From a virus (lineage: Duplodnaviria; Heunggongvirae; Uroviricota; Caudoviricetes): DNA of 44,606 nucleotides. The translations under genes were made by a program, and so were the position numbers. Positions 1,273-35,769 of this stretch are shown here, in pieces. The DNA is taken from positions 1-44,606 of IMG/VR virus record IMGVR_UViG_2711768040_000011. The stretch is one strand, 5' to 3'. Each line of letters begins with the position of its first letter. Position 1 is the stretch's first letter. A model generated the notes under the pieces. It worked only from the letters and a program-made list of their open reading frames with translations. It did not search any database and was not told where the DNA came from.

Positions 1273-1542
1273 TATCGTTGAGTATTAGCCTTGGTCAACC
1301 CGAAATTTTCTGATTTTCGTTACTGAGAGCTTAGGTATGGTGTAAGCTATTGACGTTAGTTTGCTCTCAACAAGTTACTAACTAGGGGGTCAGGCGGGCT
1401 TCGCTCTCTTGACCCCTGACTTTCCACATTGGTAGTTGTCCACTCCCTGCATCTGTTTTTACAAAGCACATAATCATTACACAAATTAAGCTTTATGATT
1501 ATAATGCTATTGTCTCTACATCTTTTGAGCCTAACAATCAAT

Positions 1543-2655
1543 ATGAAATTATCTCAAAATCAGTCTGATGCACTTGAGTCTCTCAGGGGGTTGTCAGCTA
1601 TCGCAGTGTTAATCTGTCACTTTTTTCAGGTCTTTCTGGCTAGATTTTATCCTGATTACTTTCATGCCGATTTGATCATTGCTCAGTCTAGCGTAATGAT
1701 TTTTTTTGTTATGAGTGGCTTTCTTATTGGTGTATCAGTGCAGTCAAACATCAGTCGAAACGGAAGTTTTGACCTCATTTCGTATGCCAAATCACGATTT
1801 CTTCGTATTTACCCGCCTTTATTGTTTGCCATTATATTGTGTTTCATTTTGTCTAGCTTGGCCCCAATTTTCTTTGAAAGCGGAAGCGCCTCTTTCATGA
1901 TCCCAGATGCTTTTACACGAGGTAAATCTCTGGAAATGCCAGCAAAAGAGATTTTGGCCTCACTTACTTTCATGAATGGATTCTTGCCAGTAGGTGCAAA
2001 TTTTAACTCCCCTCTGTGGAGCCTACCGTACGAGGTGTGGTACTACGTTGTCTTTGGCCTACTTGCAACTCTACGCCCTGGGCTTGTGATTCTTGGTCTT
2101 ATTTTTTTCTTTGTCATTTCAATGGCAAATGATCGCTTCATGGCTTACTCAGTAATATGGGGAGCCGGTTTCGCAATGTCATTCTTACTTTCAAGAACTG
2201 CTTATGCTAAAGCGCTATGTGTTATCGGGCTTGCTTATTTCGGTTATCAATCTTATTTAAATGCAGGAACATTCCTGGACGGAACAACCGATCTAGAAAT
2301 GTATAAAATTACATTCGGCCTCGCATTTTCCATGCTCGTTTATATAGCACTCTTCATTTATGACCTGCCTTTCAAGGTGTTAAAGAAATCATCAAAAATT
2401 TCATACACGTTATATATCACTCATTTCCCTGTTATGCTTTTCTTCATCGGAGCTTTCGAGTACACAGTTAAAAATGATGCTTCGTTATCTGCGGTCATTG
2501 GGATCTGCGCAATGGTTGTGGCCTTAATCATTTCGCATTACGCATCACAAGTTTTTGAGAACAAAAAAGTAATGGCTGCAATGTTTATGAAAAAGGCCAT
2601 GCAAGAAAAATCAAATATCAGAAGTCCGGAGCATACGTCCCTGACACAAAAATAG
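1543..2655 (+). CDS. membrane acyltransferase (acyltransferase-3/OafA family; putative O-antigen O-acetyltransferase, lysogenic conversion)
   Basis: Multi-TM protein with ESLRGLSAIAVLICH motif typical of acyltransferase-3; AT-rich; in-frame alternative start at 1495; 3' end overlaps tailspike 3' end. Confidence 0.8.
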   Translation: MKLSQNQSDALESLRGLSAIAVLICHFFQVFLARFYPDYFHADLIIAQSSVMIFFVMSGFLIGVSVQSNISRNGSFDLISYAKSRFLRIYPPLLFAIILCFILSSLAPIFFESGSASFMIPDAFTRGKSLEMPAKEILASLTFMNGFLPVGANFNSPLWSLPYEVWYYVVFGLLATLRPGLVILGLIFFFVISMANDRFMAYSVIWGAGFAMSFLLSRTAYAKALCVIGLAYFGYQSYLNAGTFLDGTTDLEMYKITFGLAFSMLVYIALFIYDLPFKVLKKSSKISYTLYITHFPVMLFFIGAFEYTVKNDASLSAVIGICAMVVALIISHYASQVFENKKVMAAMFMKKAMQEKSNIRSPEHTSLTQK

Positions 2656-4570
2656 TCGTGCCGAGAGACTGCAGGAATGCTGGTTTTACTAGAACATTCT
2701 TGAGGCTAACTGCTACCCACGTGCTATTCGAAACGTTGGCCGCCATCACGATAGTTTGTGTCGTTGATGGCGCATTCACTCCCACCGTAGCAGACGTGTC
2801 TACAAGAGTAGAACCAGCATAATATGACACTGCAGGTAACGTAGTTGTTGCTCCATGTGTCAATGTCACAAGACCAGCTGAACCAGATGCCGACACAAGG
2901 GATGAAATCCATGCTGGGGGAGTTGCGGCAGGCCTGCCAGATCTGATTTCGCCAGTATTTACGTTTACTATAATATCCAGATTGGCATATATAGTTACAC
3001 GCAAATTATAATCTGTGCTTACGTTTAATCTGTCAGCAATAGCAAACAAGCCACTGGTTAATTCTGTTCTGTTTAAATATGCGGTAAAATCAAACCAACA
3101 CGACGCATTATCTGAAATGGTAAATAATAATGAGTTACCGTCACTTGCAGGAGCAACCTTCGATATATTCGACGGGCGCATCACTCCAGTATCGTTATTT
3201 AGATTAAGAATTTGCCACGAAGAACTAGATGAGGCATATCGTGCTGCTGCAGCACAATGCTTTGCCCTTAGCCATGGCGCAACGTTGTTTCCTGTGTACT
3301 GTAACAGATCCTCAGGGGTCTTTGTTTTCACTCCCCCCTTCTCGATAGCCCACAATCCTCTCGCCGCTCCTGCACCCATGGTGTTATAGCCTTTTTGGGT
3401 ATAGTGAACTCCTTCTGTTCCTACGTTTCCGTCACGATTAAGGAATGAAGGACACCCATCAAAAGCAGTAACAGCAATATCTCGAGCATTAACAACATAT
3501 CTCTGAGCGTTCTGGATGGTTTGCCATGTGTATTCTGGTCGGTTCTTTGGGCTGCCAACTGTACAGTTTGCGAACCTTGCCAGAGGTATATCTGCAGAAA
3601 GATTATCGATGAGATTAACAAACAAAGATCGGTAAGAATCGAACGATGTCTCGTTAAGCTGATCTGTTTCACCCTGATGGAAGAGAACATATACTTTTCC
3701 GAGCGTTAACCCCTGAGTCCCCATTCTTGATATTGCATTATTAACACCTGCAACTAATAAGCCATAATAGTCAGACGCGCCAGTAGATGCCCCCTTAGAA
3801 AGTTGAGCTAACGAGGTAGCACCACGACCACAATGAACAACAACAGCACCCCTGCCACTCAGTCGATACCATTCGTTAGTAAATTCACCCCATGCATGCC
3901 CTGAAGATGCCACTCCTGACGAGCTTACAATGGCCTGAATGATCGGTTTAATAGTACCGTCTGTGAAATCATACATCAGTGATTTCGGCAGCGGGGATGG
4001 GAATCCAGACGTATCACCAGAAAGAATGGCCTCGCCAGCGCTATTGGACTGGCCGTAGGTCACGATCAGGTCATATACATCAGGGGCTTCAAGATATTTT
4101 GTACCCCTAACGTTCTGCGCAACCTGAGATGCCGGCACTCCAGCAATACTCACCGTGCTATTAACATCGGCTAGCTGCTTACGGAGAACATCGCTAACGT
4201 CAACGAGTTGCCATTTACCCTCGCCTGTTCCGCCTGATGAGCCAGGCGTTGATCCAGAAGGAACTGTCTTGGGTAATGTCGAAAGGTCATCCCATCGGTA
4301 CCATGCGCCAGAGGTAGTGTCCTGGATGATATCTCCTGGGTTATTGACTATCGCCCCACCCTGGAAGGTTCCTACGGGATTCCAGCCAAGGGCATAGATC
4401 TGTTCGAGAACCAAAGCCTTCAGACCTTCAATCGTGTAGTGCTTATTCCCGAAGCGATCGATATACCACTCAGCAAAAGAGGTAACGAATTCATCTATTT
4501 TCCCGGCGTTAAATTTCAGGTCAATTGGGGATTCGCTCGGTACAGGCCTATTGGTAGGTGTAGTAGCCAT
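2618..4570 (-). CDS. tailspike / receptor-binding protein with SGNH (SASA/DUF303-type) esterase domain
   Basis: 650-aa ORF at distal end of tail module; central GQSNSAGEA and HQGETD blocks resemble sialate O-acetylesterase family motifs; C-terminal third is AT-rich. Confidence 0.75.
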   Translation of the reverse strand: MATTPTNRPVPSESPIDLKFNAGKIDEFVTSFAEWYIDRFGNKHYTIEGLKALVLEQIYALGWNPVGTFQGGAIVNNPGDIIQDTTSGAWYRWDDLSTLPKTVPSGSTPGSSGGTGEGKWQLVDVSDVLRKQLADVNSTVSIAGVPASQVAQNVRGTKYLEAPDVYDLIVTYGQSNSAGEAILSGDTSGFPSPLPKSLMYDFTDGTIKPIIQAIVSSSGVASSGHAWGEFTNEWYRLSGRGAVVVHCGRGATSLAQLSKGASTGASDYYGLLVAGVNNAISRMGTQGLTLGKVYVLFHQGETDQLNETSFDSYRSLFVNLIDNLSADIPLARFANCTVGSPKNRPEYTWQTIQNAQRYVVNARDIAVTAFDGCPSFLNRDGNVGTEGVHYTQKGYNTMGAGAARGLWAIEKGGVKTKTPEDLLQYTGNNVAPWLRAKHCAAAARYASSSSSWQILNLNNDTGVMRPSNISKVAPASDGNSLLFTISDNASCWFDFTAYLNRTELTSGLFAIADRLNVSTDYNLRVTIYANLDIIVNVNTGEIRSGRPAATPPAWISSLVSASGSAGLVTLTHGATTTLPAVSYYAGSTLVDTSATVGVNAPSTTQTIVMAANVSNSTWVAVSLKNVLVKPAFLQSLGTTIFVSGTYAPDF

Positions 4571-10828: not shown

Positions 10829-11203
10829 TTATTGGCATCGGTCTATGTATGCCTGAGGCGGCGGCGTATCTTTCGAGCTGAGGAAGTGTTCACCAAGCGT
10901 GTAATCGACACCTTTTGAGAACATCCCTTTCGATTTCATGTTCAGCTCAACGAAGAAAGGATGAAATCCAGCATACGCCCCGAAGCCGTTCTTGCCGTTA
11001 ATCTCACCGCAAACTACAGCAATGATACGGCCGTCATCGGCATCAGTCATTTTGGCTATTTTCACGTTGCGGAACTGTGCGCTAGCCGGGTCTTTAAGAT
11101 TTGCAGCAACCTCTGATTTCGCCAGTGATATAGCCTTTTCCTCGCCGGGCTTGCAGCCAGCCAGAACCAGTGGAATCGCCAAAGCCAAAAGTATTTTCTT
11201 CAC
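10829..11203 (-). CDS. lipoprotein (moron inside tail module)
   Basis: MKKILLALAIPLVLAGC signal peptide with lipobox; inserted between chaperone and tape measure genes, with its own terminator. Confidence 0.8.
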   Translation of the reverse strand: MKKILLALAIPLVLAGCKPGEEKAISLAKSEVAANLKDPASAQFRNVKIAKMTDADDGRIIAVVCGEINGKNGFGAYAGFHPFFVELNMKSKGMFSKGVDYTLGEHFLSSKDTPPPQAYIDRCQ

Positions 11204-16458: not shown

Positions 16459-17847
16459 TTACTCCGGCATTTCGCTGACTGATTGGGTGTTGGTTGCCTG
16501 ATGGCGGAATGCACCGTTCAGGCCGAAAGATGTCTGGCACTTGGCGTACATGGCGTCGAGCGCCTTACCGTCCAGATCCGCGACTTCGTCGTCGCTCATG
16601 TTCATCGCCAGCTTCACAGCCGCGCGCTTTTCGCCTTTCTCTTTATCGGCGTTAGCGCTCAGGCTGTTGAAAACGACGTCCACGCGATCGGCGAGTTTCT
16701 GCGCCCACGCTGGCATCTCTTCGTTATTGGCGGCCTGCTCTTTTTTCTTGGGCTTGCCGGTTTCCGGGTCGATTTCTTCATCGCCTTTTTTCTTGGCGGT
16801 GGCTTCTTCGGCCTTCATCTGGTTGTATGCGTCCATCAGCTCGGCGTCGGACTTGCCTTCAGTCGGCTTACCAGCGGCTTGCAGCGCATTGATAATCAGT
16901 TCTTTCATCGGATCGTTCTCTCCGTTGGTTTTAATCTCGTACTCAGTGGGTTTGCGCACGACTTCTACAGGTTCGCCGACGAACACGGCCTTGCCGTCAT
17001 CATCGATGAGGTACTTCTGTTTCAGGTATTTGGTGTCATTGCGGTAGATGAAGCTGTCCGGCCACACCGTTTCAGGCCAAAGCCACTTATCTTCGGTGTC
17101 ACCCTCGCGCAGCTTGTCGCTGATAGCGCGGGAGATATCGTCGAAAGAGAAATTAGAGGCATTGGTGAAGAAGAATTTGGTCTTGTTGAGCAGGCCGTCT
17201 CGGGTACAGTCGATGCCATCAGCCAGACGGGCAACTTCAATCTGCTGCTCATCACCTTCAGAGTTAACGAAGATGCCCACGCCATCCTCCGGCGTACCCG
17301 CGCCAGGCTCATCGAGCAGCACCGCCACATGGTCAAACATCATGTTGGTGGCGATCTCGTTGTACTTCTTGCCCTTCGACTCACCATTGGCGGCGATGCC
17401 GGAATACAGCAGACCGGTTGAGATGTGGATCGGGTCGGAGTTGGTACCAGCCAACATCTCATCCAGACGGTTAATCAGGCGCTTGCCCTTGTCGCTGGAT
17501 TCGGCGTACTGGCGGTTAACGTACATATCGCCCGTCACTTTCCCGTCTTTGTGGCTGACGTTCTGCAGCCATGCCCCGACGTGATACTCATTCACCGCCC
17601 GGACATCGCGCGCCGAAACATGCTTGCCGTCCACTTTCGGATGGCCCAGCGGCATCGGGTTGCGCTCGAGTGTGTTGTAGGCCTTTTCGATTTCGGCTGC
17701 CGGGTACAACTTCCGGTTCATCACAATATCGTCCACGACAGGCGTGATGCCGCGAACCACGATATGTGGCTTGCCGTCGATGGTTTCAGTGGTGATGTTT
17801 GAAGCGGAGTTGACGACGGTCAGCACGTTAACGCGGTTGCGTTTCAT
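16459..17847 (-). CDS. putative prohead scaffolding/protease protein (DUF2213-like)
   Basis: 462-aa ORF with acidic/Lys-rich C-terminal region, upstream of capsid gene. Confidence 0.55.
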   Translation of the reverse strand: MKRNRVNVLTVVNSASNITTETIDGKPHIVVRGITPVVDDIVMNRKLYPAAEIEKAYNTLERNPMPLGHPKVDGKHVSARDVRAVNEYHVGAWLQNVSHKDGKVTGDMYVNRQYAESSDKGKRLINRLDEMLAGTNSDPIHISTGLLYSGIAANGESKGKKYNEIATNMMFDHVAVLLDEPGAGTPEDGVGIFVNSEGDEQQIEVARLADGIDCTRDGLLNKTKFFFTNASNFSFDDISRAISDKLREGDTEDKWLWPETVWPDSFIYRNDTKYLKQKYLIDDDGKAVFVGEPVEVVRKPTEYEIKTNGENDPMKELIINALQAAGKPTEGKSDAELMDAYNQMKAEEATAKKKGDEEIDPETGKPKKKEQAANNEEMPAWAQKLADRVDVVFNSLSANADKEKGEKRAAVKLAMNMSDDEVADLDGKALDAMYAKCQTSFGLNGAFRHQATNTQSVSEMPE

Positions 17848-17876
17848 GCTGGGTCCTCGTTATTGGATATCTGGCA

Positions 17877-17900
17877 ATAAAAAAGGCCGCCGTAGCGACC
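17877..17900 (-). terminator. rho-independent terminator downstream of head-module moron
   Basis: ggucgc-uacg-gcggcc hairpin (one G-U) followed by UUUUUUAUU on minus strand. Confidence 0.45.
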
Positions 17901-17916
17901 TTCAGGAGCTCTGAGG

Positions 17917-18432
17917 TTATTTAAATTTAAGTTCTTTTTCAGCGTCCAAGACAATGGCATCAATAAGTTGCTGGGTCGCAATCGTCATATCATTGTATGC
18001 CACAAAATCTGGGTAACCCTCTTCGTAAACACTATGATCGGAATCAGCGTCCTGCTTGAAGAAATTATTGAGCAAATCCCTTGTATTATTGCTTAGAGAG
18101 ATTGGTGCGAGCACATAAAACCGATGGAGTTGCGCTTTTATTTGATGGAATGTATTCCAATCAACAGACCCTTTCGGCGGCGGCCTACCATACATACCAG
18201 CATTGTATTCAGCCTCGTAAAAATCTGAGGCGTGGGAATAAATTGCTTTGATTTCAAATAATTTATCAATTAATTGATTGTACGCAGCATGTTTCTTCTC
18301 CCACCATTTTTCTTTGTAAAATCGATTCAGAGCGAAAAATGCAGTAAATCCTGCTGCCACAACCCCAGTGGTGATTGGAACAACTAGAGATAAAAAGAAT
18401 GAACCGACTTCTGCCGGAGTTACACTGCTCAT
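17917..18432 (-). CDS. AT-rich membrane-anchored moron protein of unknown function
   Basis: 171-aa ORF, N-terminal TM helix (FFLSLVVPITTGVVAAGFTAFFAL); AT-rich versus flanking head genes; AAGGGTGAG SD and own terminator. Confidence 0.7.
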   Translation of the reverse strand: MSSVTPAEVGSFFLSLVVPITTGVVAAGFTAFFALNRFYKEKWWEKKHAAYNQLIDKLFEIKAIYSHASDFYEAEYNAGMYGRPPPKGSVDWNTFHQIKAQLHRFYVLAPISLSNNTRDLLNNFFKQDADSDHSVYEEGYPDFVAYNDMTIATQQLIDAIVLDAEKELKFK

Positions 18433-18471
18433 TGCTCACCCTTAAGCAACTTTATCATTTACATGATGATA

Positions 18472-19476
18472 TCACTCCGACTCGGATTTCCAAGCTTTCC
18501 TCTCTTTCGCCAGTTTCTCAGCCAGCCCCTCATTGAAGATGCTGCCGTCGTCGTTGAGCAGCACTGGGATCTGGCTGCAGTAGCAGTTGTACCGGTTGCC
18601 GTTCTCGGCGTAGAAGTCCCGAATCTCTTCGGTGGTGTAGACCTTGCCGTGGCGGCTGGCATGCCAGGTTCGCGTCGTTGGTTTTAGCGCTGACAACCAC
18701 AGTAGGCCGGTATTCAGCCCCAGCCGGTCAGCAGCCCAGTCGGTTTCGTTCCATTGTGCCTGCCGCAGTGCGCCGACCTGCTCAGTCTGAGCGATGGTCT
18801 TTGCCTTCGACATCGACACATCGAGGCGCTTGCTGATTACGCTGGCCGTCTCGCGAGGGTTCACCCCGCGCGCGACCGCATCGGTGATGATGTTGGTCAG
18901 GTCGCCGCGGGCTGTATCGCTGATGACCTTCCAGTCACTGAACGTTGTCAGCCTTGCCGCTGCCACCTGATTAAGATGACCGGGACTGCTTAAAAGCTGC
19001 TGCAGCGTCGTCTGACTGGCATACACCTGCGACTGTTGCGAGAGGTTATTGAATGCCTCAAGCGTGCCGCGCTGCGCTTCTGCGACGACGTAATCCATCG
19101 CCCAGAGATTTTGCTCGCCACCATCCAGCAGGTAATCGTCGAGAATGGCCTGCACCGCTTCCAGCAGGTCCGCCAGTTCCTGCGCCGACATGTCGTAGAT
19201 GAACTTGCCGGCGTTTACCTGGTAGAGGCGCATATCCGCGCCGTGGTCATGACAAAGGAAGTGCCAGTTATGGCTGTTAACCTCGCGCTCACGCCCGGTA
19301 AGGCGCTGGTCGAACAGAGATTTCAGCGCTCGCTTGATGCCGATATATCGCTTCTCGATATCCCGGAACATCGCGGTTACCTGCTTTGCCGATAGGGTTG
19401 GGTCAACCTTGCTGCGCGGAACTACCGGTGTCCCGACTTTCGTCTTTTGCTCCGGCGTCATCGGAAAGAGGATCAT
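18472..19476 (-). CDS. head morphogenesis protein (SPP1 gp7 / Mu F-like minor capsid protein)
   Basis: 334-aa ORF immediately downstream of portal gene; start may be an internal Met. Confidence 0.7.
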   Translation of the reverse strand: MILFPMTPEQKTKVGTPVVPRSKVDPTLSAKQVTAMFRDIEKRYIGIKRALKSLFDQRLTGREREVNSHNWHFLCHDHGADMRLYQVNAGKFIYDMSAQELADLLEAVQAILDDYLLDGGEQNLWAMDYVVAEAQRGTLEAFNNLSQQSQVYASQTTLQQLLSSPGHLNQVAAARLTTFSDWKVISDTARGDLTNIITDAVARGVNPRETASVISKRLDVSMSKAKTIAQTEQVGALRQAQWNETDWAADRLGLNTGLLWLSALKPTTRTWHASRHGKVYTTEEIRDFYAENGNRYNCYCSQIPVLLNDDGSIFNEGLAEKLAKERKAWKSESE

Positions 19477-20878
19477 CGGTCGTTACCTTTTTATTTGGAT
19501 CAGGCGGCTTAACATCTTCACGCGGCTCAAGTTCTCCCGCTTCCCTGACCTCGTTCTCATCAACAGCAGGTGTGCCGTAGGCTTGCTGGGTATCCTTCGC
19601 CACCGCAGCCATTTCCTTCATGTTGGCAATCTTCTCTTTCTCGCTTGGAGCGAGTAGATCAGACCAGGTTAACGTGATTTCGCCAGATTTAGGTGGTTCG
19701 ATAACCTCCACAGTCCAAAGCCGTTCTATAACTGCACTTGCCCGGTCAGTCTGGAACCCGTTGCGGCGACCATTACAGCGCTTGGCAAAGTCGTTTTTGT
19801 CCTGATCTGAAGCAAGCCTTCCTGTCTGCTGACCAAACAAGATGGTGAATGGCATCTGGACTGAAGATGAAAACTGGTTAGCTGACACTGTCCACGTTGG
19901 ACTCGGATCGGCAGCGGCAACGGAAAGCACTTTAGCCTCTCCGTCCTGCGTCACCAGGGCCGAATCTGTACCAGAGTTAAGCTTCTGGATAGCAGCGTTA
20001 AGCGCCTCAGCCAGCCCCGAGTAACCAGCCTTCTTGGCATCCTCCATGATTTTGTCAATCTTGGTGTCTTTCGACATGTTAATGCCGAGCTGCCTGCTGG
20101 CGTTTTTCAGGAACCCCTCAGCGCTGCCGCCGGAGGTTTTAGCCATATCCAGCAGGTCGTTATAGCCTGCACGCAAGAACGGGATGCCAGCCTGTGAGGA
20201 TTCATCTTCTGAACCCTCGCAAAAAATAATGATGCGCTCAGGATGAATTTTGATTGAGCGCATAGGACCAACAATACTGCCGTTGTCCCCTACAGGTTGC
20301 TCCTGAAAATAATAAAACTTCGGCATGGCGTAATCAGGGGACTTCTGATCCTGCTCTAATTCGCCAGGCTTTACCTGCGATTCCCATGCAGGAATCATCT
20401 TCACCAGGCCACGCTCGCGCGAATTACGCATTACGTCACGATTAACTGGCTCAGACCATTCACGACTATCGGCAAACTGAAGAATTAGGGCTGAGTAGTG
20501 ACCGACAAGGTTACGTCTATCAGCGTCCTTCACCTTGGCCCAGTATTTCTTCATGAGCTTGGTGACTTTCTTTTCCCATGGCGTCGACTTTTTAGACTTC
20601 TTCGTCTCATCGCCGTCGACGATCACCGGGGTATCAGTCCAGCATGCATCGAGCAACTTATGAACAGCACCGAACGCGGCACCGTTGCGCTCATACATGT
20701 TGTAGAAGTGGTCAAAGTCGAGGCGCTCAGGATAGCCAAATTCACACCACAGATGATGTCGCTTGGTGTTGCCTGATTTATTGAAGCCAGCCGCATAAAG
20801 CTGTCGAGATCGCGATACCTCGTTGAGGCTATTCACAATCAGCCCAGCGAGGACTTGCATTTCTGTATCGTTACTCAC
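19403..20878 (-). CDS. portal protein
   Basis: About 490 aa, directly downstream of large terminase, acidic C-terminus; start GTG 20878 or ATG 20860 (ORF open to 20950). Confidence 0.7.
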   Translation of the reverse strand: MSNDTEMQVLAGLIVNSLNEVSRSRQLYAAGFNKSGNTKRHHLWCEFGYPERLDFDHFYNMYERNGAAFGAVHKLLDACWTDTPVIVDGDETKKSKKSTPWEKKVTKLMKKYWAKVKDADRRNLVGHYSALILQFADSREWSEPVNRDVMRNSRERGLVKMIPAWESQVKPGELEQDQKSPDYAMPKFYYFQEQPVGDNGSIVGPMRSIKIHPERIIIFCEGSEDESSQAGIPFLRAGYNDLLDMAKTSGGSAEGFLKNASRQLGINMSKDTKIDKIMEDAKKAGYSGLAEALNAAIQKLNSGTDSALVTQDGEAKVLSVAAADPSPTWTVSANQFSSSVQMPFTILFGQQTGRLASDQDKNDFAKRCNGRRNGFQTDRASAVIERLWTVEVIEPPKSGEITLTWSDLLAPSEKEKIANMKEMAAVAKDTQQAYGTPAVDENEVREAGELEPREDVKPPDPNKKVTTDDPLSDDAGAKDESRDTGSSAQQG

Positions 20879-20888
20879 TGAGTTGTCC

Positions 20889-22451
20889 TTATGTGAAGAA
20901 TATCGCCCCTGAACGGCGAGGTGAGTGCAGCACGCGGTAACGGGTAGCATCCCAGTCGTGGTCTTCCTGCTGGGTATCTACGTCATCCGGGTTTTTGCTG
21001 TCGCGAACCAGCACGGGTATGCGGCTAATCCAGCCACGGCAATGCTCCAACACGTAAAAAGCAGGCTTCTCAGGAATTCCAGATTCCAGCTTCTTACCCT
21101 CAACCACCGCCTCAAGCATGTCGGCGAATACCGAAGCCCCGTTGACTCGAGAGCCTGGCTTCTTATTGGCCTCAAGCCATTCAACACCCTGATTTTCCAT
21201 TTTCTGACCGATCGATAACTCATCGTCGCCAGTGTTGAAAATGGCGCTATCAGCTGGGCCAGGAATAACCTCCGAGCAAATTCCCGGCACAATGTTGAGT
21301 TGGCCCTGCGTGACCCCGTCGATTTGAATCTCTTCCGGCTCGTCGACGTCTTCGCCCACAAGCCGCTTGTCAATCCACGCCACGCCTTTCGCGACGTTGG
21401 TGGATGACATGTTCAGGCCTTTGTTCAGCTCGTCAGGCGGGCAGCCGTACCATTCTCCGATCAGGATTATCGAACCAGCCGGCGGGCAGAACTGTCGACC
21501 ATCTGGCAGCTCGGCGGCAGTGCCGTCAGCTTGGGCCCACCAGAGGTTAGAGAACGGCTTCGACTCACCCCAGTCATGGGAGCGGTCGACGGTCCAACTA
21601 TCCGGTATGCGGAACGGCTTAATGACGTGCAGCGCTTCATTCCACAGGTGGTCAAATCGTCCGCCACTGGTCACATCCCAGGAGCCCTCTACCCAGGCCT
21701 TGCGTCGGTTAGGGTCTTTGATGGCCATCAGGGTCGCGATGTACTGCGGGTCGAGGTACGGGTTTTCTTTAAACGAGCCGTGGATTGCCACGCGGGTCAG
21801 CGTGATTTCCTCTTCTCGCTCAGTCTGAGGGTTGAATACCATTTGCCGGTCGCGCTGTACGGTTCCGCGCGGCGCTGGCTCAATGAAGCGCTTCTTCACC
21901 CAGGTATGCCCGATGCCAAACGGGTTGGTCGTGCTGAATGTCTCTAGCGGGATTGGCCTCAGTAACTTGCCATTCTCCAGCGGGTAGTTTTCCGGCCTGA
22001 ACGATGAACGTCGGCACGAGAACATCATTTCGTAGAATTCCGGGGACTGCTGTTTAGTCAGCTCGTTAAAGCCGATAAACGGGAATTCCTGCCCGTGGAA
22101 ATCCCAGTAGTCGTCTGCCTCTTTGCCGAAGCGGAAGAGAAGTTCCTCGCTTGTGGGCCATACCCATCGCAATTCGCTCGCAGATGACAGATAGCGCGCA
22201 CCGTCGTTGAATAGGCGAAACATACGCTTCGACTGAGTGATGATGTCGGCAAGGTTCTTATATTCGGTGTCGAAAATGACGCCGCGCCAGAACGAGCCAT
22301 AACCCACGCCGACATTACGCCTGAACCTGGCTAACTGCGCAGCTGTCTTGCCCGGTCCGCGAGTGCCCTCGAACAGGATTTCGTTACACGGGCAGCTCAG
22401 CGCCAGGGACTGAGATCCAGGCAGTGGCTTCCATACAGCTTTGTAATTCAT
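20889..22451 (-). CDS. terminase large subunit
   Basis: 520-aa ORF with Walker A-like FEGTRGPGKT and C-terminal nuclease-type acidic motifs. Confidence 0.9.
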   Translation of the reverse strand: MNYKAVWKPLPGSQSLALSCPCNEILFEGTRGPGKTAAQLARFRRNVGVGYGSFWRGVIFDTEYKNLADIITQSKRMFRLFNDGARYLSSASELRWVWPTSEELLFRFGKEADDYWDFHGQEFPFIGFNELTKQQSPEFYEMMFSCRRSSFRPENYPLENGKLLRPIPLETFSTTNPFGIGHTWVKKRFIEPAPRGTVQRDRQMVFNPQTEREEEITLTRVAIHGSFKENPYLDPQYIATLMAIKDPNRRKAWVEGSWDVTSGGRFDHLWNEALHVIKPFRIPDSWTVDRSHDWGESKPFSNLWWAQADGTAAELPDGRQFCPPAGSIILIGEWYGCPPDELNKGLNMSSTNVAKGVAWIDKRLVGEDVDEPEEIQIDGVTQGQLNIVPGICSEVIPGPADSAIFNTGDDELSIGQKMENQGVEWLEANKKPGSRVNGASVFADMLEAVVEGKKLESGIPEKPAFYVLEHCRGWISRIPVLVRDSKNPDDVDTQQEDHDWDATRYRVLHSPRRSGAIFFT

Positions 22452-23098
22452 CCACCGAGCACCCCGTCCTGATGTTTCTGCGCTGCCGCCTCCCAGTCAT
22501 CCACGTTGTCACTGGTTGGCACCAGCATGACGTTATGGGTGACCTCTTTCGTTTCAGCCTTATTCTCGATGCTGTATGCCTCACGCTCGAGGCCGATCAG
22601 CGTCTTTAGGCTGTCGCTCAGGTCTTTCATGGATTTAACGCGGGAAGGCAGGCTGATCACTTTCTGATAAATTTCATTGAGCCGGTCCCGCCCTTTATCG
22701 TCGGGGTCAAACATGATGTCGCCCAACTGCTCGAGCGCGCTTACATCTGCGCACTGCGCACCAAGTTCATCGAATAGCGTGTTGGTCAGTTCACGAGCCC
22801 GGCGGATGTCTCCCCGGTGCTCCATGCGTACCGTGGCAATTACCTCGGCAGTCGCCTCTATCAGTACGCGCTCGGTCAAAGTGCTTTCGTTGCGTACCTG
22901 TTTGCGTACCTCCTGTTTGCGTACCAGATCATCAGCCTTTTGCTGAATCTTCGCATTGAGGTCACGCGACCAGTCGTCACGCTTGGCACGCTTACGGATA
23001 GCGCCTTCGCTAATACCGTGCTGTGAAGCAATTTCTCGGAGGGACATCACTCCGGCCCGGTACGCCGTCTCGATGGCCTCCCAGTCCGGTTTGCTCAT
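22448..23098 (-). CDS. terminase small subunit
   Basis: 216-aa ORF with N-terminal HTH (MSLREIASQHGISEGAIRKRAKRD), overlapping start of large terminase. Confidence 0.7.
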   Translation of the reverse strand: MSKPDWEAIETAYRAGVMSLREIASQHGISEGAIRKRAKRDDWSRDLNAKIQQKADDLVRKQEVRKQVRNESTLTERVLIEATAEVIATVRMEHRGDIRRARELTNTLFDELGAQCADVSALEQLGDIMFDPDDKGRDRLNEIYQKVISLPSRVKSMKDLSDSLKTLIGLEREAYSIENKAETKEVTHNVMLVPTSDNVDDWEAAAQKHQDGVLGG

Positions 23099-23397: not shown

Positions 23398-23979
23398 TTA
23401 TTTTGCAGTTTTGTATTCAATAAACCCGTCAAAAATCAGACTATCGATGGTCATCATTTTCGTAAGTTTTTCCATAACCTCAGGATTTTCTTGCATATCA
23501 ACAAGCCATCTCCTCACGCCATTAGCTATATCATTACATAACTCAATAACATCTAATTGCAGAACACCATTAAAAGCATTCATATGTGCATGAAGGTTTT
23601 CTCGCGCAGGGGTCGTTATCTTAAACTTCCTTAGCTTCGTTTCATCAACGCCTTCATGCAAACATGCATTCCTTAAACTCCAACAGTCTTCTGCAGTGAA
23701 TGAGACTACGGGTTTTTGCGCCCTTAAGCTTTGCTTTATTCCTTCAGGCATGCTCTGAACCATTGCAGGGCTGGTGAGACTTAAATAGTCATACATGTTA
23801 TCAGCGTTATATCTTGGCTTAAGATAGCGATTAAACCAGTCCTTGTACCTCGCGCCATTTCCTTTGATTTTATCCTCTGTCGCGCCACAGATGTCAGGAA
23901 GTGATATTGCTATGAATAAAGCACCAAACCAATTCTTTTTAGACAAGCAATCATCTATTCCACTCAGCAACTGTTGCAT
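23398..23979 (-). CDS. AT-rich moron protein with HEPN-like R-x4-H motif (candidate abortive-infection/defence protein)
   Basis: ORF open to 24060 (GTG); ATG 23979 with AAGGTG SD gives 193 aa; AT-rich; contains SLRNACLHEG (R-x4-H). Confidence 0.6.
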   Translation of the reverse strand: MQQLLSGIDDCLSKKNWFGALFIAISLPDICGATEDKIKGNGARYKDWFNRYLKPRYNADNMYDYLSLTSPAMVQSMPEGIKQSLRAQKPVVSFTAEDCWSLRNACLHEGVDETKLRKFKITTPARENLHAHMNAFNGVLQLDVIELCNDIANGVRRWLVDMQENPEVMEKLTKMMTIDSLIFDGFIEYKTAK

Positions 23980-24047
23980 ATATGAGCACCTTATTTTGTT
24001 GTAGACAGAGCCTACAATACAACCAGATGCAACTATTAAGAAAACCT

Positions 24048-24527
24048 TTACTTCAAGCACTGAGTGCTTAGATATTCCTGAAGATAGCCAACCTGCTTCA
24101 TCACTGTGGCGATTCTTTCTCTGAGGGTGAAATAATCCCGTTCAGCGGAGTCAGTAAGTCGGGGGCCGGAAGCATCGCCCATGCCGCTGGAGCCGGTCGT
24201 TCCGTTCGCGGGACAGTTTGCGTTGAGCTGCAGCCGCTTACGGCCAGCAATGACATCGCTATGCAGACGCTCAATGGTTTCTTTCGCATCAGCTAGTTCT
24301 CCGGTGTATTTGGCATCCAGTGCAGCGACATCACGCTGGCGGGCCTGCATGTCTTTTATGGTGGTGTTAGCCAGGCTGAGTTTCTCAGTGGCTTTATCGC
24401 GCTGGTCTTTATAAGCGATGGCGTTGTCGCGGTAGTGGTTAATCGCCCAGGCCATGGAAACGAGCAGGCAGATAACGACAGCACAGATGATTGCTGTTAA
24501 TCGGCTCATTTCTGGCCCCACTCGCAA
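24048..24527 (-). CDS. Rz: i-spanin Rz
   Basis: 159-aa ORF with N-terminal TM, coiled-coil middle, downstream of endolysin, with Rz1 embedded. Confidence 0.8.
24101..24289 (-). CDS. Rz1: o-spanin Rz1 (lipoprotein embedded in Rz in alternate frame)
   Basis: 62-aa [23 protein letters not shown] (lipobox), Pro-rich, entirely inside Rz. Confidence 0.75.
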
Positions 24528-25000
24528 ACTTCGCGCTCAATCTCGCGCCGGGTTATCAGTCCCTTCCACTGCTTGCCACCGGCATACGTCCAGCGTTGCA
24601 GTTCTTTGCATGCCCCCGGCACGTCTCCGGCGTTCAGCTTCTTCAGCAGCGTCGAGCTGGCAAAAGCACCAGAGCCAACGTTATAGGTGAAGGAGTAAAG
24701 CGCGGCGCGGGTTGGCTCAGGAATGCGAACCTTGATCAGCGGGTCGATAGCATTTGCCACCTTTCGCAGATCGGCCTTCAGCATGTTGTCGCACTCTTTG
24801 TCGGTGTATCGGTGACCGCGGCGAATGTCCGCTCCGGTGTGCCCATCGCAAACAGTCCAGACGCCGACCACATCCTGATAGGCGTAATAGCGCCGTCCTT
24901 CCAGCCCATCGGCATTGCCCAGCATTACTGCAGCAATGGTGATGGCTCCGGATCCGCCAACAATGGCACCCACCAGCTTATTCCTCAACGTTGGGTTCAT
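24506..25000 (-). CDS. SAR endolysin (lysozyme, T4/P21 R-like)
   Basis: 164-aa ORF with N-terminal hydrophobic signal-arrest-release segment ([20 protein letters not shown]) followed by lysozyme-like region. Confidence 0.8.
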
Positions 25001-25549: not shown

Positions 25550-26050
25550 TCATTGAAAAGCAAGCACGTTGTGAACATTTTTTGCAACTTTGTTCACATT
25601 ATCGCGGCTGATAAAGGCATTTTGCAGCGGTTGATACAGGCAGAACAGTGCCGCGTTAAGTGTTTCCTTCACCTCCCGGCGTATGGTGGATATGCTCGGG
25701 TGCTTATACTGATTCCCGCCACGCGTCTTCATCACTCGAGGTTTGCTCACAGCGTGCTGCCAGCTGGCGATGCGGATCTCACTGGAGTTGCAGACGTAAT
25801 AGGCGAAGACAACACGCCAGGCGTTCTCGTCGATATTTTTCAGGTAATGGCGCAGCACTGCGTCAATCAGCATACCGTCGTCGTCGCTACATACCGGGCG
25901 AGATGCCTGCTGCGGTTCGACGGTCGCCATAAACTTGGCAATCATGTTGATCATCGCCTTGTCTATCTTCCCGGTCTGCGACCATGCACCCCACAACTGG
26001 AGCCACTGATCAATCCACTGATGCTGCTCGTTGGTTAATTCCAGTTTCAT
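25550..26050 (-). CDS. putative late-gene antiterminator Q
   Basis: 166-aa ORF immediately upstream of tRNA/terminator/lysis genes; N-terminal QWIDQWLQLWGAWS block typical of one Q family. Confidence 0.55.
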   Translation of the reverse strand: MKLELTNEQHQWIDQWLQLWGAWSQTGKIDKAMINMIAKFMATVEPQQASRPVCSDDDGMLIDAVLRHYLKNIDENAWRVVFAYYVCNSSEIRIASWQHAVSKPRVMKTRGGNQYKHPSISTIRREVKETLNAALFCLYQPLQNAFISRDNVNKVAKNVHNVLAFQ

Positions 26051-28499: not shown

Positions 28500-28781
28500 T
28501 TAGTCGTCCACGCGTTTAAAGCACTGCGGGCAAACATCATTTCCACCGTGTTCTTCGTATGCGCTTTTAACAGCATCAGTCATCTCTTTAAAGCTTTCGA
28601 ATAGATGACTACCGTTGCTTTTTTTATAAGCTCCGGCTGCGTATTTGTAGATGTCGGACTCTTCTATGCCCTCATCAACATAAGTGCCCTCATGATGAGG
28701 GCACTGCGTTAAAGCGCCAACCCTACCAAGCATCTCCAATGCCCAACACTCTTGTTTCATGCAAAGTTGATCGATACTCAT
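28500..28781 (-). CDS. hypothetical Cys-containing small protein (AT-rich cassette)
   Basis: 93 aa from ATG 28781 with AGGAGG SD; Cys pairs incl. CPQC; AT-rich. Confidence 0.5.
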   Translation of the reverse strand: MSIDQLCMKQECWALEMLGRVGALTQCPHHEGTYVDEGIEESDIYKYAAGAYKKSNGSHLFESFKEMTDAVKSAYEEHGGNDVCPQCFKRVDD

Positions 28782-29047
28782 AACGCCTCCTGTTGGTTTT
28801 ACATCGCCAAATGAATGTACCACCATGCAAGAGGAAATGAAGCAGTTAAATTGTAAAACATGTGTATATATCAATGAGTTAAAATAGTTTGCTATTTTTC
28901 TTACAGCCTTGCTGCGTCGAATGGGTTAGGCATGGCGACCTCTACACGAGCTGAAAATATAAGCCGCTACAGCCAAATCCTGAATTGCTGTTATTGCCAG
29001 CATCCAACCATAAATGCTGTCATTGAAATGCCACGCCAGCGCTGTAA

Positions 29048-34741: not shown

Positions 34742-34975
34742 TTAGGCCGCAGTATCACGCGGCGATGCGAATACCAGGCTTTCTTTTAGGACCGGAGCCT
34801 GGCGGTGAAAATTCTTCGTGCCTTTCTCGATAGCAGATGCCATTTCTGGAGATGCCCGGCGATTTCCGTAGGCGATCTGGTCCAGGTAACCTGGCGTCGT
34901 GTTAGCCAACTTTGCGAGCTGCGCCCATTCGTCGGTAGTGGCGGCCTTGCGCCAGCGGTGTAGTTCAGTGCTCAT
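34742..34975 (-). CDS. Cro-like / YdaS-like HTH regulator
   Basis: 77-aa ORF with HTH (WAQLAKLANTTPGYLDQIAYG), divergent from cI across operator region. Confidence 0.65.
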   Translation of the reverse strand: MSTELHRWRKAATTDEWAQLAKLANTTPGYLDQIAYGNRRASPEMASAIEKGTKNFHRQAPVLKESLVFASPRDTAA

Positions 34976-35007
34976 TGGTGTCTCCGGGTGAGTCGTTTGA
35001 TTTGGAG

Positions 35008-35073
35008 TTTAGCGTTATGCTAAATACTACGCAAGCATCATTTAGCAATTTGCACATTTATCATTTTGCTAAA
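35008..35073. promoter_or_regulatory. OR-like operator cluster (TTTAGC-N5-GCTAAA palindromes) with divergent promoters
   Basis: TTTAGCgttatGCTAAA at 35008-35024, TTTATCattttGCTAAA at 35057-35073, weaker site at 35041-35057. Confidence 0.5.
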
Positions 35074-35091
35074 AGCAGTAACAATGCAGGT

Positions 35092-35769
35092 ATGGAAAAT
35101 AAAGAAATCAGAAAAGCCAACCTGGAAGCGCTGTACGAGAAGCGTCAGCACGAGTCTGGAATGACCAAAGCGCAGTTTGCCGAGCTCATCGAGACAAGTC
35201 CGGCTGCGCTTAGCCAGCTACTGGGACCAAACCCTCATCGCAATATCGGCGATAAGATGGCTCGCAAAATTGAAACTGCGCTTGATCTGCCTTTTGGCTG
35301 GATGGATGTTTTACACGCCAGTGAAGAACCTTCGAACGTTGCATTTCGAGGACTGAACGAGACAAAAGGAAGTTATCCTGTAATCAGCTGGGTAAGCGCG
35401 GGGCAATGGATGGAAGCTGTAGAACCTTATCACCGAAGAGCGATAGATCGCTGGTATGACACGACTGTTGACTGCTCAGAAGATTCATTCTGGCTGGACG
35501 TTAAAGGGGATTCTATGACCTCCCCGGCTGGACTGAGCATACCCGAGGGAGCAGCGATACTTGTTGATCCTGAAGTCGAGCCGCGCAACGGAAAGCTGGT
35601 TGTCGCGAAGCTAGAAGGCGATAACGAAGCGACCTTTAAGAAGCTTGTAATCGATGCCGGCAGACGCTTCCTAAAGCCCCTTAACCCCGCATATCCAATG
35701 CTAGAAATTAATGGAAACTGCAAAATCATCGGCGTTGTGGTTGATGCCAAAATACTAAACATCCCATAA
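35092..35769 (+). CDS. cI: CI-type prophage repressor (HTH + LexA-like S24 autopeptidase)
   Basis: N-terminal HTH, Ala-Gly cleavage site (SAGQW), GDSM Ser and FKKL Lys motifs; ATG 35092 (ORF open from 34975). Confidence 0.9.
   Translation: MENKEIRKANLEALYEKRQHESGMTKAQFAELIETSPAALSQLLGPNPHRNIGDKMARKIETALDLPFGWMDVLHASEEPSNVAFRGLNETKGSYPVISWVSAGQWMEAVEPYHRRAIDRWYDTTVDCSEDSFWLDVKGDSMTSPAGLSIPEGAAILVDPEVEPRNGKLVVAKLEGDNEATFKKLVIDAGRRFLKPLNPAYPMLEINGNCKIIGVVVDAKILNIP

What the first reader, a model, noticed from the sequence alone, without database searches (positions are those of the whole stretch)
17877..18432. AT-rich membrane-protein moron splitting the head module
A 171-aa ORF with one N-terminal TM helix, of strikingly lower GC than the flanking head morphogenesis and scaffold genes, with its own SD and a downstream terminator hairpin. 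This gene-plus-terminator architecture is typical of morons; its function is unknown (candidate abortive-infection or exclusion protein).
Basis: partly seen in the sequence, partly recalled or inferred. Interest (0 to 1): 0.6.

Follow-up and report, generated by a model that had tools for sequence, protein, structure and literature searches.

The report
Swappable membrane-protein gene in prophage hotspot
A small AT-rich gene for an inner-membrane protein sits as optional cargo, with a terminator, in a highly variable slot between two head genes of an E. coli-type lambdoid prophage; it belongs to a widespread uncharacterised family that travels on many mobile elements and is a reasonable but untested candidate for a phage-exclusion protein.

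Summary
A 171-aa ORF lies at 17917..18432 on the minus strand. Its GC is 39.9% (GC3 36.6%), against 55-58% (GC3 72-74%) in the flanking head genes. It has one N-terminal TM helix, a Shine-Dalgarno site and a downstream hairpin plus T-run.

The gap between the Mu F-like gene and the DUF2213 gene is a hypervariable cargo slot. In 75 phage contigs whose DUF2213 gene is at least 92% identical, the gap runs from 122 nt (empty, 4 loci) to 1154 nt. It holds more than 20 unrelated cargos, and this family is the commonest (15 of 75). The terminator belongs to the slot edge and is shared by unrelated cargos.

The protein has no Pfam, NCBIfam or PADLOC match; its only match is phrog_17948, of unknown function. 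The model is a membrane-anchored cytoplasmic four-helix bundle with an invariant RFYxEKWWEKK motif. Conservation is high next to the membrane and low at the far tip.

Homologs survive intact in eroded prophages. They also occur near xis/int, after N, on an ICE, on a plasmid and beside restriction, AbiE and GmrSD genes.

Moron status is well supported. A role in defence or exclusion is inferred only.

The parts
17917..18432 (-). Cargo gene: 171-aa bitopic inner-membrane protein. It has a short periplasmic N-tail, a TM helix at about residues 11-35, the juxtamembrane motif RFYKEKWWEKK (residues 37-47) and a cytoplasmic four-helix bundle.
   Evidence: ORF. phrog_17948, E 3e-30. Family alignment. 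AF2 model, pLDDT 86.7. Topology by the positive-inside rule in 73/73 members.
18437..18445 (-). Shine-Dalgarno-like site TAAGGGTG, ending 4 nt before the ATG.
   Evidence: Sequence read directly.
18466..18493 (-). Sigma-70-like promoter candidate: TTGGAA, 16 nt, then TG-n-TATCAT (extended -10). The -35 lies inside the 3' end of the Mu F-like gene and the -10 overlaps its stop codon. Its function is inferred, not shown.
   Evidence: Score 10, p about 0.01 against shuffles, in the 8 loci with the same allele. A similar element is in L005. It is not found upstream of other alleles.
17876..17903 (-). Intrinsic-terminator-like hairpin (GAAGGTCGC-TACG-GCGGCCTTT) followed by a T-run. It forms the conserved right edge of the cargo slot.
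   Evidence: The same hairpin follows unrelated cargos in 49 of 75 slots and in none of the 4 empty slots. Stems are kept while loops vary, and three stem types occur. It is 89.8% identical over 49 nt to the annotated terminator of ES18 gene 3.
17848..17875 (-). Conserved junction carrying the ribosome-binding site of the DUF2213 gene (ATTGCC...AATAACGAGGACCCAGC). It is present in cargo-bearing slots and, in its last ~25 nt, in empty ones.
18472..19476 (-). Left boundary of the slot: Mu F-like head morphogenesis gene.
   Evidence: PF04233, E 1.3e-11; phrog_758, E 1e-141.
16459..17847 (-). Right boundary of the slot: DUF2213 / phrog_760 gene (possible prohead protease or scaffold).
   Evidence: PF09979, E 5e-5; phrog_760, E 7e-199.

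Best explanation
The gene is optional cargo (a moron) in a recombination-prone, hypervariable slot between the Mu F-like and DUF2213 head genes of a group of lambdoid prophages of Enterobacterales. This part is shown, and I put it at about 0.9.

The slot is bounded on the left by the 3' end of the Mu F-like gene. On the right it is bounded by a conserved terminator hairpin plus the ribosome-binding site of the DUF2213 gene. Unrelated AT-rich genes, and old, deeply diverged alleles of this gene, are swapped in and out between these conserved edges.

During lytic growth, Q-modified RNA polymerase would read through the hairpin so the downstream capsid genes are made. A Q gene lies at 25550..26050. 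In the lysogen, any transcript started locally would stop at the hairpin. These two steps are inferred.

The product is a single-pass inner-membrane protein with its N-terminus outside and a cytoplasmic four-helix bundle. I propose it is a self-contained, single-gene protein that protects the host of the mobile element against other phages, by superinfection exclusion or abortive infection. I put this functional part at about 0.4-0.45. In this model the variable membrane-distal tip of the bundle recognises a phage or injection-related component at the inner face of the membrane. The conserved TM helix and tryptophan-rich juxtamembrane collar then act at the membrane, either by blocking DNA entry or by oligomerising to leak the membrane. 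The division into sensor and effector is an inference from the conservation pattern alone.
For: Cargo status:
- Flanks are 85-96% identical in relatives that carry a 74-aa gene, a 158-aa gene or an unannotated gene instead.
- In 75 IMG/VR loci the gap ranges from 122 to 1154 nt, with 4 empty slots and more than 20 cargo types. This family is in 15 of them.
- GC is 36-42% for the family in every context examined.

The protein is real and under constraint:
- 64 close homologs and 184 hits at E<=0.001 among 1.84 billion cluster representatives, at 150-190 aa.
- dN/dS is 0.12 in the one unsaturated pair.
- The motif Y39, E41-K42-W43-W44-E45 is invariant in the close family.

Old alleles are shuffled into the slot:
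- Synonymous differences are saturated (pS 0.8-0.9) between alleles whose flanks are about 85% identical in DNA.
- The N-terminal and C-terminal parts have different histories.

Structure and topology:
- AF2 model with pLDDT 86.7: the TM helix continues into helix 1 of a four-helix bundle.
- In 73 of 73 members, K+R count is 0.25 on the N-side and 4.1 on the C-side of the TM helix.
- Conservation is 0.91 in the juxtamembrane motif and 0.75-0.76 at the membrane-near ends. It is 0.47-0.57 at the distal tip. The same polarity holds in the distant alignment.

Benefit in the prophage state:
- In Salmonella strain s1 the intact gene is the only ORF left of a <1.3-kb prophage remnant between ycgN and dsbB.
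- In Gibbsiella the gene survives with only the first ~85 codons of the DUF2213 gene, beside PDC-M09A/B and an OLD-like ATPase.
- In E. coli A14 the gene is 100% identical and sits in a truncated prophage.

Other carriers and neighbours:
- After the N gene in Pantoea.
- Next to xis/int in phages CobraSix and OS31 and in an Enterobacter MAG.
- On an ICE in Salmonella houtenae.
- On Yersinia ruckeri plasmid pYR7, near a HEPN-associated-domain protein and a restriction endonuclease.
- After AbiEii plus GmrSD in a Syntrophobacteraceae MAG.
- Convergent with a type III restriction enzyme and PDC-S02 in a deltaproteobacterial MAG.
Against: - There is no homology to any characterised defence, exclusion or abortive-infection protein. 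PADLOC gives no match for the protein. Only sporadic weak hits (LeoBC, Csx28, tm_HEPN; E 3e-4 to 3e-3) appear in a few of 73 distant members.
- Fold searches return only generic four-helix bundles.
- None of the other 10 slot cargos tested is a known defence gene. They include HNH homing endonucleases and a Rap1a type VI immunity protein.
- A consensus promoter is not conserved across alleles. The gene shares the strand of the late operon, 39 nt after the Mu F-like gene, so late co-transcription is certain and lysogenic expression is unproven.
- Almost all of the protein is cytoplasmic, which is unlike most injection blockers.
- In Vreelandella Mu-like prophages a homolog lies directly upstream of the endolysin gene, a holin-like position.
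- The context evidence is a handful of loci, not an enrichment statistic.
Confidence: 0.45

Rival explanations
1. The protein serves the phage's own lytic cycle. It would be made late with the head genes and act at the membrane, for example as a lysis-timing factor (holin- or antiholin-like) or as a late-acting block on superinfection of an already infected cell.
For: It has the same strand as the late operon and lies 39 nt after the Mu F-like gene. A promoter is not conserved across alleles. In two Vreelandella Mu-like prophages a homolog sits between a Mor-like gene and the M15 endolysin gene. It is a small single-TM protein.
Against: The window has its own lysis cassette 6 kb away (lysozyme 24506..25000, Rz 24048..24527). 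Phages with at least 92% identical head genes lack the gene or carry unrelated cargo. The gene is kept intact in remnants with no lysis or structural genes. It also occurs on an ICE, on a plasmid and in defence islands. The conserved terminator only makes sense for transcripts not modified by Q.
Confidence: 0.15
2. It is a lysogenic-conversion or addiction factor unrelated to phages. Examples would be a membrane protein that changes envelope physiology or stress tolerance, or a membrane toxin that stabilises the element.
For: Many morons alter host physiology (general knowledge; reviewed in papers cited). The gene is retained in eroded prophages. It is carried by several kinds of mobile element. 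No defence homology was found.
Against: No partner antitoxin gene is conserved beside it; it stands alone in the slot. The variable tip with a conserved membrane end and the deep allelic diversity shuffled between near-identical phages fit a conflict system better than housekeeping physiology. Several neighbours are restriction or Abi genes.
Confidence: 0.15
3. It is a counter-defence (anti-defence) gene of the phage, as is common for cargo of variable accessory regions.
For: Variable accessory regions flanked by core genes often hold anti-defence genes (bioRxiv 10.1101/2023.04.06.535777). The gene is expressed with late genes. Its alleles diverge fast.
Against: Retention as the only intact gene of decayed prophages, and residence in chromosomal defence islands, on an ICE and on a plasmid, are not expected for a gene useful only to an infecting phage. 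Membrane anchoring is unusual for known anti-defence proteins. Late expression is too late to counter most defences.
Confidence: 0.08
4. It is a minor head or assembly protein, or a non-coding or spurious ORF.
For: Only its position inside the head module.
Against: There is no structural homology. The slot is empty or differently filled in phages with near-identical head genes. The ORF is conserved in length, with dN/dS 0.12, and has hundreds of homologs.
Confidence: 0.02

Closest known systems
HK97 gp15 moron (YebO-like inner-membrane superinfection-exclusion protein; Cumby et al. 2012, cited)
   Same: It is a small membrane protein encoded by an AT-rich moron inside the late structural operon of a lambdoid phage, on the same strand as its neighbours, and thought to protect the lysogen. 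A Cronobacter relative of this prophage carries both a homolog of this gene and a YebO-like gene before the tape-measure gene.
   Different: There is no sequence relationship: no PF13974 hit. The slot differs (head module here, tail module there). This protein is larger and has a folded cytoplasmic four-helix bundle. Function has been shown for gp15 but not here.
P22/lambda SieB (PF14163), prophage abortive-infection membrane protein
   Same: It is a prophage-borne membrane protein with a cytoplasmic C-terminal part. The Pantoea homolog sits just after the N gene, where, to my recollection, lambda carries sieB in its pL operon.
   Different: There is no Pfam match at E <= 0.1. From memory, SieB has two TM helices. 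No internal-start Esc-type self-immunity product was looked for.
Hotspots of antiviral systems in P2/P4 (Rousset et al. 2022, PMC9122126) and phage accessory regions (Silas et al., bioRxiv 10.1101/2023.04.06.535777)
   Same: Conserved core genes flank a site where many unrelated, AT-rich cargos alternate among otherwise near-identical elements.
   Different: The phage group and position differ: between the Mu F-like and DUF2213 head genes of lambdoid prophages. Cargos are mostly single small genes. None of the 10 cargos tested matched a known defence family, so calling this a defence hotspot is not justified.
Tab (Pseudomonas phage JBD26) and Tai: defence genes inside or beside late operons (PMC10884400, PMC11364771)
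   Same: They are prophage morons lodged in or beside packaging and morphogenesis operons that defend the lysogen.
   Different: Tab and Tai are soluble proteins that block tail assembly, and each has a partner that protects the carrier phage. No partner gene is present here, and this protein is membrane-anchored. There is no homology.
Csx28 (Cas13b accessory membrane pore)
   Same: From memory, it has a similar size and layout: an N-terminal TM helix plus a helical cytoplasmic domain that oligomerises into a pore.
Four-helix-bundle ligand-binding domains of chemoreceptors (Tar/Tsr) and designed 4HB proteins
   Different: The similarity is generic, with 3-13% identity. The chemoreceptor bundles are periplasmic and end in a second TM helix. 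This bundle is predicted to be cytoplasmic and ends free.

Membership tests
Moron (sensu Juhala/Hendrix: extra gene unit in a phage operon) | Present in some genomes and absent from closely related ones at the same position. | tested here: met
   Four empty slots and more than 20 alternative cargos occur among 75 loci whose DUF2213 gene is at least 92% identical. Three Klebsiella phages carry other cargo.
Moron (sensu Juhala/Hendrix: extra gene unit in a phage operon) | Nucleotide composition unlike the neighbouring genes. | tested here: met
   GC 39.9% and GC3 36.6% against 55-58% and 72-74%. The same holds in 12 other loci.
Moron (sensu Juhala/Hendrix: extra gene unit in a phage operon) | Followed by its own factor-independent terminator. 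| tested here: met
   Hairpin plus T-run at 17903..17876. It is conserved, with varying loops and three stem types, in 49 of 75 slots and absent from empty slots. The test is at sequence level only.
Moron (sensu Juhala/Hendrix: extra gene unit in a phage operon) | Preceded by its own promoter. | tested here: inconclusive
   TTGGAA-16-TGnTATCAT lies upstream of this allele (p about 0.01) and of the L005 allele. No significant consensus promoter lies upstream of the other alleles.
Moron (sensu Juhala/Hendrix: extra gene unit in a phage operon) | Expressed from the repressed prophage. | not testable with these tools
   This needs RNA-seq or 5'-RACE on a lysogen.
Prophage defence hotspot (as in P2/P4) | Conserved flanks with many unrelated alternative cargos. 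| tested here: met
Prophage defence hotspot (as in P2/P4) | A substantial share of cargos are recognisable defence systems. | tested here: not met
   Ten alternative cargos were scanned. PADLOC matched only homing-endonuclease models, for the HNH cargo. Pfam found HNH_3, Rap1a and zinc ribbons only.
Known anti-phage defence families (PADLOC-DB 2.0) | Significant profile match. | tested here: not met
   No families at E <= 10 for the protein. Only scattered weak hits appear among 73 relatives.
SieB (PF14163) and YebO/HK97 gp15 (PF13974) | Pfam profile match. | tested here: not met
   No Pfam family at E <= 0.1. None in 73 relatives at E <= 0.01.
Holins | Small TM protein encoded in the lysis cassette next to the endolysin gene. 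| tested here: not met
   In the window the gene is about 6 kb from the lysis genes. Only the Vreelandella Mu-like homologs adjoin an endolysin gene. No holin Pfam match was found.
Phage head structural or assembly proteins | Homology to a known head protein, or conservation with the head module. | tested here: not met
   The gene is dispensable by comparison.
phrog_17948 (PHROGs, function unknown) | Profile match over the full length. | tested here: met
   E 3.4e-30, residues 11-170 against profile positions 5-167 of 185.

The most novel reading that the evidence does not exclude
ORF171 would be the founding, testable member of a widespread single-gene immune family. Its parts are a TM helix, the tryptophan collar F-x-x-E-K-W-W-E-K and a cytoplasmic four-helix bundle. 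The family is carried by prophage cargo slots, ICEs, plasmids and defence islands from Enterobacterales to Deltaproteobacteria. In this reading the fast-changing distal tip of the bundle senses an invading phage at the inner face of the membrane, and the conserved membrane end executes exclusion or abortive infection. The Mu F | DUF2213 gap would then be a new reservoir of mostly unknown conflict genes inside a capsid operon.
Probability: 0.35. Interest if true: 0.65.

Novelty: new member of a known kind. Interest (0 to 1): 0.5.

Why it matters
Morons and cargo hotspots are a known kind of feature, so the architecture itself is not surprising. Three things here are new and usable.

1. A precisely bounded, highly variable slot inside the head operon of a common group of Klebsiella, Enterobacter, E. 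coli, Citrobacter and Salmonella prophages. Nearly all its cargos have no known function, which makes it a ready list of candidates for conflict genes.

2. A well-defined, uncharacterised protein family with no Pfam, NCBIfam or PADLOC model. It has a confident structure model, a uniform predicted topology and an invariant motif to mutate.

3. Natural experiments (eroded prophages that keep only this gene) suggesting it pays its way in the host.

If the defence role is confirmed, it adds a one-gene membrane system that current defence-finding tools miss.

Tried and rejected
- **HIV gp41 hits.** Profile hits at E about 1e-3 cover only the tryptophan-rich stretch. I treat them as compositional.
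- **Csx28, tm_HEPN and LeoBC.** The PADLOC hits touch 1-3 of 73 distant members at E 3e-4 to 3e-3. I reject them as membership.
- **Gibbsiella locus.** I first read it as an independent chromosomal defence-island context. tblastn and blastn then showed it is a remnant of the same prophage slot, with the 5' end of the DUF2213 gene still attached. I reclassified it.
- **Promoter.** A promoter conserved across the slot was sought and not found.
- **dN/dS.** It could be estimated for only one allele pair, because synonymous sites are saturated in the others. No test for positive selection at the tip was possible.
- **Literature.** No paper mentions WP_053265478, and it is not in the DefensePredictor supplements. 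Brenes & Laub 2025, on E. coli prophage defence systems, is not held. I could not check whether this family was tested there.
- **Search caps.** The look-up cap for encoding contigs was reached, so no enrichment statistic for defence neighbours was computed.
Full report
**1. The observation**

The ORF runs 17917..18432 on the minus strand, starts at ATG and encodes 171 aa. Its GC is 39.9% and GC3 is 36.6%. The upstream Mu F-like gene (18472..19476) has 58.2/73.7 and the downstream DUF2213 gene (16459..17847) has 55.5/71.7. Only 1.6% of 516-nt windows in the 44.6-kb window are as AT-rich.

A Shine-Dalgarno-like TAAGGGTG ends 4 nt before the ATG. After the stop codon there is a 9-pair stem-loop at 17903..17882 followed by TTTTTT. 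It folds at -16.1 kcal/mol, z = -2.0. A sigma-70-like element, TTGGAA-16-TGnTATCAT, lies at 18493..18466 and straddles the stop codon of the Mu F-like gene.

**2. The surroundings**

The window is a complete lambdoid prophage. Its genes, in order:
- integrase 43425..44606 and TnpB 41944..43104;
- CI-type repressor 34975..35769, YdaT and DnaB;
- NinB, NinG and the Q antiterminator at 25550..26050;
- lysozyme and Rz;
- large terminase 20889..22451 and portal 19403..20950;
- the Mu F-like gene, the cargo gene and the DUF2213 gene;
- decoration protein and major capsid protein (DUF6260);
- tail genes, a tailspike with a SASA esterase domain, and an acyltransferase.

The segment 17850..18500 is 100% identical to E. 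coli A14 (NZ_CP028760.1), where the protein is WP_053265478.1, "hypothetical". There the prophage is truncated: its early region and terminase are gone.

**3. The position is a hypervariable cargo slot**

Three Klebsiella phages share the flanks at about 85% DNA identity. In the gap they carry a 74-aa gene, a 158-aa gene or an unannotated ORF.

I fetched 80 IMG/VR loci whose DUF2213 gene is at least 92% identical to the window's. Of these, 75 hold both flanks. In those 75:
- The gap from the Mu F-like stop to the DUF2213 start is 122 nt in four loci, with no ORF and no hairpin. It reaches 1154 nt in others.
- More than 20 unrelated cargos occur.
- The 171-aa family is the commonest, in 15 of 75 loci. 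One of these looks disrupted, and eight carry an allele at least 98.8% identical to the window's.
- Other cargos include HNH_3 homing endonucleases (230 and 201 aa), a Rap1a type VI immunity protein on the opposite strand, a two-TM zinc-ribbon protein, a secreted 138-aa protein, and many small proteins with no match.
- None of the ten cargos scanned matched a known defence family in PADLOC.

This sample is the top 80 of 488 hits and is redundant, so the fractions are rough.

**4. Terminator and promoter**

The hairpin plus T-run is the conserved right edge of the slot. It follows unrelated cargos in 49 of 75 slots and is absent from the four empty slots and from the HNH cargos. The stems are kept while the loops vary (TACG, CACG, TATC, TTCG, AATG and others). 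Three different stem sequences occur: GGTCGC/GCGGCC, CCCGC/GCGGG and CCCAGC/GCTGGG. That pattern is what selection for structure produces. A 49-nt stretch covering it is 89.8% identical to the annotated terminator of the ES18 gene 3 moron.

The promoter-like element is significant against shuffles (p about 0.01) only for the window's allele. A similar one precedes the L005 allele. Other alleles show nothing above chance. Autonomous transcription is therefore plausible but not established. The indirect argument is that a conserved terminator in front of essential capsid genes is useful only against polymerase that Q has not modified, that is, against locally started transcripts in the lysogen. 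This is an inference, following the classical moron model.

**5. The protein**

It matches only phrog_17948, of unknown function, at E 3e-30. Nothing matches in Pfam, NCBIfam, PADLOC or PDB sequences.

Homologs:
- 64 close homologs at 29-95% identity, 166-188 aa, all "hypothetical", from Klebsiella, Enterobacter, Citrobacter, Cronobacter, Salmonella, Serratia, Yersinia, Raoultella, Gibbsiella and Pantoea.
- 184 hits at E <= 0.001 among 1.84 billion cluster representatives.
- More than 200 hits with a profile, reaching Deltaproteobacteria, Rhodospirillaceae and others. All are single-domain proteins of 150-190 aa with no fusions.

Conserved positions:
- Invariant in the close family: A26, A27, Y39, E41-K42-W43-W44-E45, A164, E167, L168.
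- In the distant alignment: W44 is invariant, and F38, E41, W43 and L168 are conserved at 90% or more.

In 73 of 73 members there is a single hydrophobic helix. The K+R count is 0.25 on its N-side and 4.1 on its C-side. By the positive-inside rule the roughly 10-residue N-tail is periplasmic and the bundle is cytoplasmic.

Conservation is polar. It is 0.91 in the juxtamembrane motif, 0.76 at the helix 2/3 turn and 0.75 at the C-terminal end of helix 4. In an up-down-up-down bundle all three lie next to the membrane. At the distal tip (residues 63-101 and 127-155) it is 0.47-0.57. The distant alignment shows the same pattern: 0.71, 0.46 and 0.44 against 0.16-0.25. The spatial reading follows from the order of helices; I had no coordinates to check it.

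**6. Evolution**

The one allele pair that is not saturated gives dN/dS 0.12. All other pairs are saturated at synonymous sites (pS 0.8-0.9), with pN 0.17-0.45. Yet the flanking head genes of the same phages are 85-96% identical in protein. For example, in L039 the Mu F-like protein is 91% identical, DUF2213 is 96.5%, and the cargo is 38%.

The alleles are therefore old and are moved between phages by recombination in the conserved edges. They have not diverged in place. The first 60 residues and the rest have different histories, and two types of N-terminus occur (MSSVTP... and MPASTFD...). The family is AT-rich (36-42% GC) wherever it is found.

**7. Where else the family occurs**

- **Same slot.** Prophages of Klebsiella, E. 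coli, K. aerogenes, Citrobacter, Cronobacter, Enterobacter, Kluyvera, Leclercia and Tatumella, and a 41.6-kb circular Salmonella Newport replicon that is the phage itself.
- **Eroded prophages that keep the gene.**
  - In Salmonella strain s1 the intact gene (77% identical) lies between the core genes ycgN and dsbB. It is flanked only by about 40 nt of the Mu F-like 3' end, scraps of terminase and the hairpin stem.
  - In Gibbsiella quercinecans (several assemblies) the gene remains with only the first ~85 codons of the DUF2213 gene. It sits beside PDC-M09A/B and an OLD-like ATPase.
  - E. coli A14 also keeps it in a truncated prophage.
- **Other prophage positions.**
  - Just after the N gene and the CI repressor in Pantoea piersonii.
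  - Next to xis/int in phages CobraSix and OS31 and in an Enterobacter MAG.
  - Between a Mor-like gene and the M15 endolysin gene in two Vreelandella Mu-like prophages.
- **Other mobile elements.** An ICE in Salmonella houtenae, and Yersinia ruckeri plasmid pYR7, near a HEPN-associated-domain protein and a restriction endonuclease.
- **Defence neighbourhoods.**
  - After AbiEi/AbiEii and GmrSD and before an HNH-effector-like gene in a Syntrophobacteraceae MAG.
  - Convergent with a type III restriction enzyme and PDC-S02 in a deltaproteobacterial MAG.

**8. How it most likely works**

Shown: the gene is dispensable, mobile, single-gene cargo under purifying selection. It encodes a bitopic membrane protein with a confident bundle model.

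Inferred: it benefits the carrier cell in the prophage state, because it is retained in remnants. It belongs to a conflict system, because old alleles are shuffled, the tip is variable, and mobile-element and defence neighbours are common.

The most economical mechanism is a one-protein exclusion or abortive-infection device. The cytoplasmic tip would recognise a phage component or an entry-related host component at the inner leaflet. The conserved TM helix and tryptophan collar would then either block transfer across the membrane or assemble into a leak.

My estimates are:

| Explanation | Probability |
|---|---|
| Cargo (moron) claim | about 0.9 |
| Anti-phage role | about 0.4-0.45 |
| Late lytic function such as lysis timing | 0.15 |
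| Phage-unrelated conversion or addiction factor | 0.15 |
| Counter-defence | 0.08 |
| Structural or spurious | 0.02 |

**9. Comparison with what is known**

In kind, the nearest analogue is the HK97 gp15 moron. It is a small inner-membrane protein inside a late operon that excludes superinfecting phage. The two are not related: there is no YebO match, the slot differs, and this protein has a folded cytoplasmic domain.

SieB, Tab/Tai and Csx28 share single aspects but fail membership tests. The slot resembles P2/P4 hotspots and phage accessory regions in architecture (PMC9122126), but known defence systems were not found among its cargos.

I found no publication on this family or this slot. 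One relevant paper, Brenes & Laub 2025, could not be read.

**10. Verdict**

The finding is real and the moron reading is right. It is a new member of a known kind, not a new kind. Its value is as a well-bounded, experimentally tractable candidate: an unannotated protein family with a clear motif, together with a cargo slot full of unknown genes.

Noticed in passing
window 23398..24060 (-): A second AT-rich island (GC about 40%) holds a 220-aa ORF with no Pfam match. It lies between the 216-aa ORF just upstream of the large terminase gene (22448..23098) and the Rz/lysozyme genes. It is another moron-like cargo candidate, at a position where relatives carry other genes such as PhageMetallopep, DUF6953 or DUF2158.
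   Followed up: partly
window 10829..11203 (-): An ORF lies between the DUF6246 tail gene and the tape-measure gene, the position of the HK97 gp15 moron. In E. coli A14 the corresponding gene is annotated as a NYN-domain protein. A Cronobacter relative carries a YebO-like (gp15-like) gene there (L050 17840..18106). No Pfam hit was found for the 124-aa ORF as called here.
   Followed up: partly
window 1495..2655 (+) and 2618..4570 (-): An AT-rich (39-45% GC) Acyl_transf_3 gene converges on a tailspike gene with a SASA carbohydrate-esterase domain. This is probably a surface-polysaccharide modification (lysogenic conversion) pair at the prophage end.
   Followed up: no
window 41944..43104 (+): A TnpB (OrfB_IS605 / Cas12f-like TNB) gene lies next to the prophage integrase gene (43425..44606). 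In E. coli A14 a TnpB copy abuts the truncated portal gene, which suggests it took part in the deletion that truncated that prophage.
   Followed up: no
L048 21560..22645 (E. coli A14, NZ_CP028760.1): RefSeq annotates the truncated portal gene (Phage_portal_3 / DUF1073 type) as 'anti-CBASS protein Acb1 family protein'. This looks like a naming artefact for this portal family.
   Followed up: no
window 17853..17901; L004 (ES18) 3001..3049: The terminator and junction sequence of the slot is 89.8% identical over 49 nt to the annotated terminator of the ES18 gene 3 moron. That moron lies between the terminase and portal genes in a phage whose head genes are only 31-36% identical. The short terminator module appears to move between different moron sites.
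   Followed up: partly
L085 (IMG/VR) slot, minus strand; four other loci have the same cargo: One alternative cargo of the slot is a signal-peptide protein with a Rap1a type VI-secretion immunity domain (E 6e-19), encoded opposite to the late operon. A prophage head operon would here be carrying immunity to a bacterial toxin.
   Followed up: partly
L098, L095, L076, L102, L108, L110 slots: HNH_3 homing-endonuclease genes (230 and 201 aa) occupy the same slot, without the terminator hairpin. Their cutting could be what makes this site recombination-prone.
   Followed up: no
Family alignment A1, residues 1-25: Two sharply different N-terminal types (MSSVTPAEVGSFFLSL... and MPASTFDVMDFxSKxGVG...) are combined with otherwise similar C-terminal domains. 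Recombination therefore also occurs inside the gene.
   Followed up: partly
window 28500..28874 (-): A lambda ea8.5-like gene (E 8e-21) sits in another AT-rich patch (43% GC) of the nin region.
   Followed up: no
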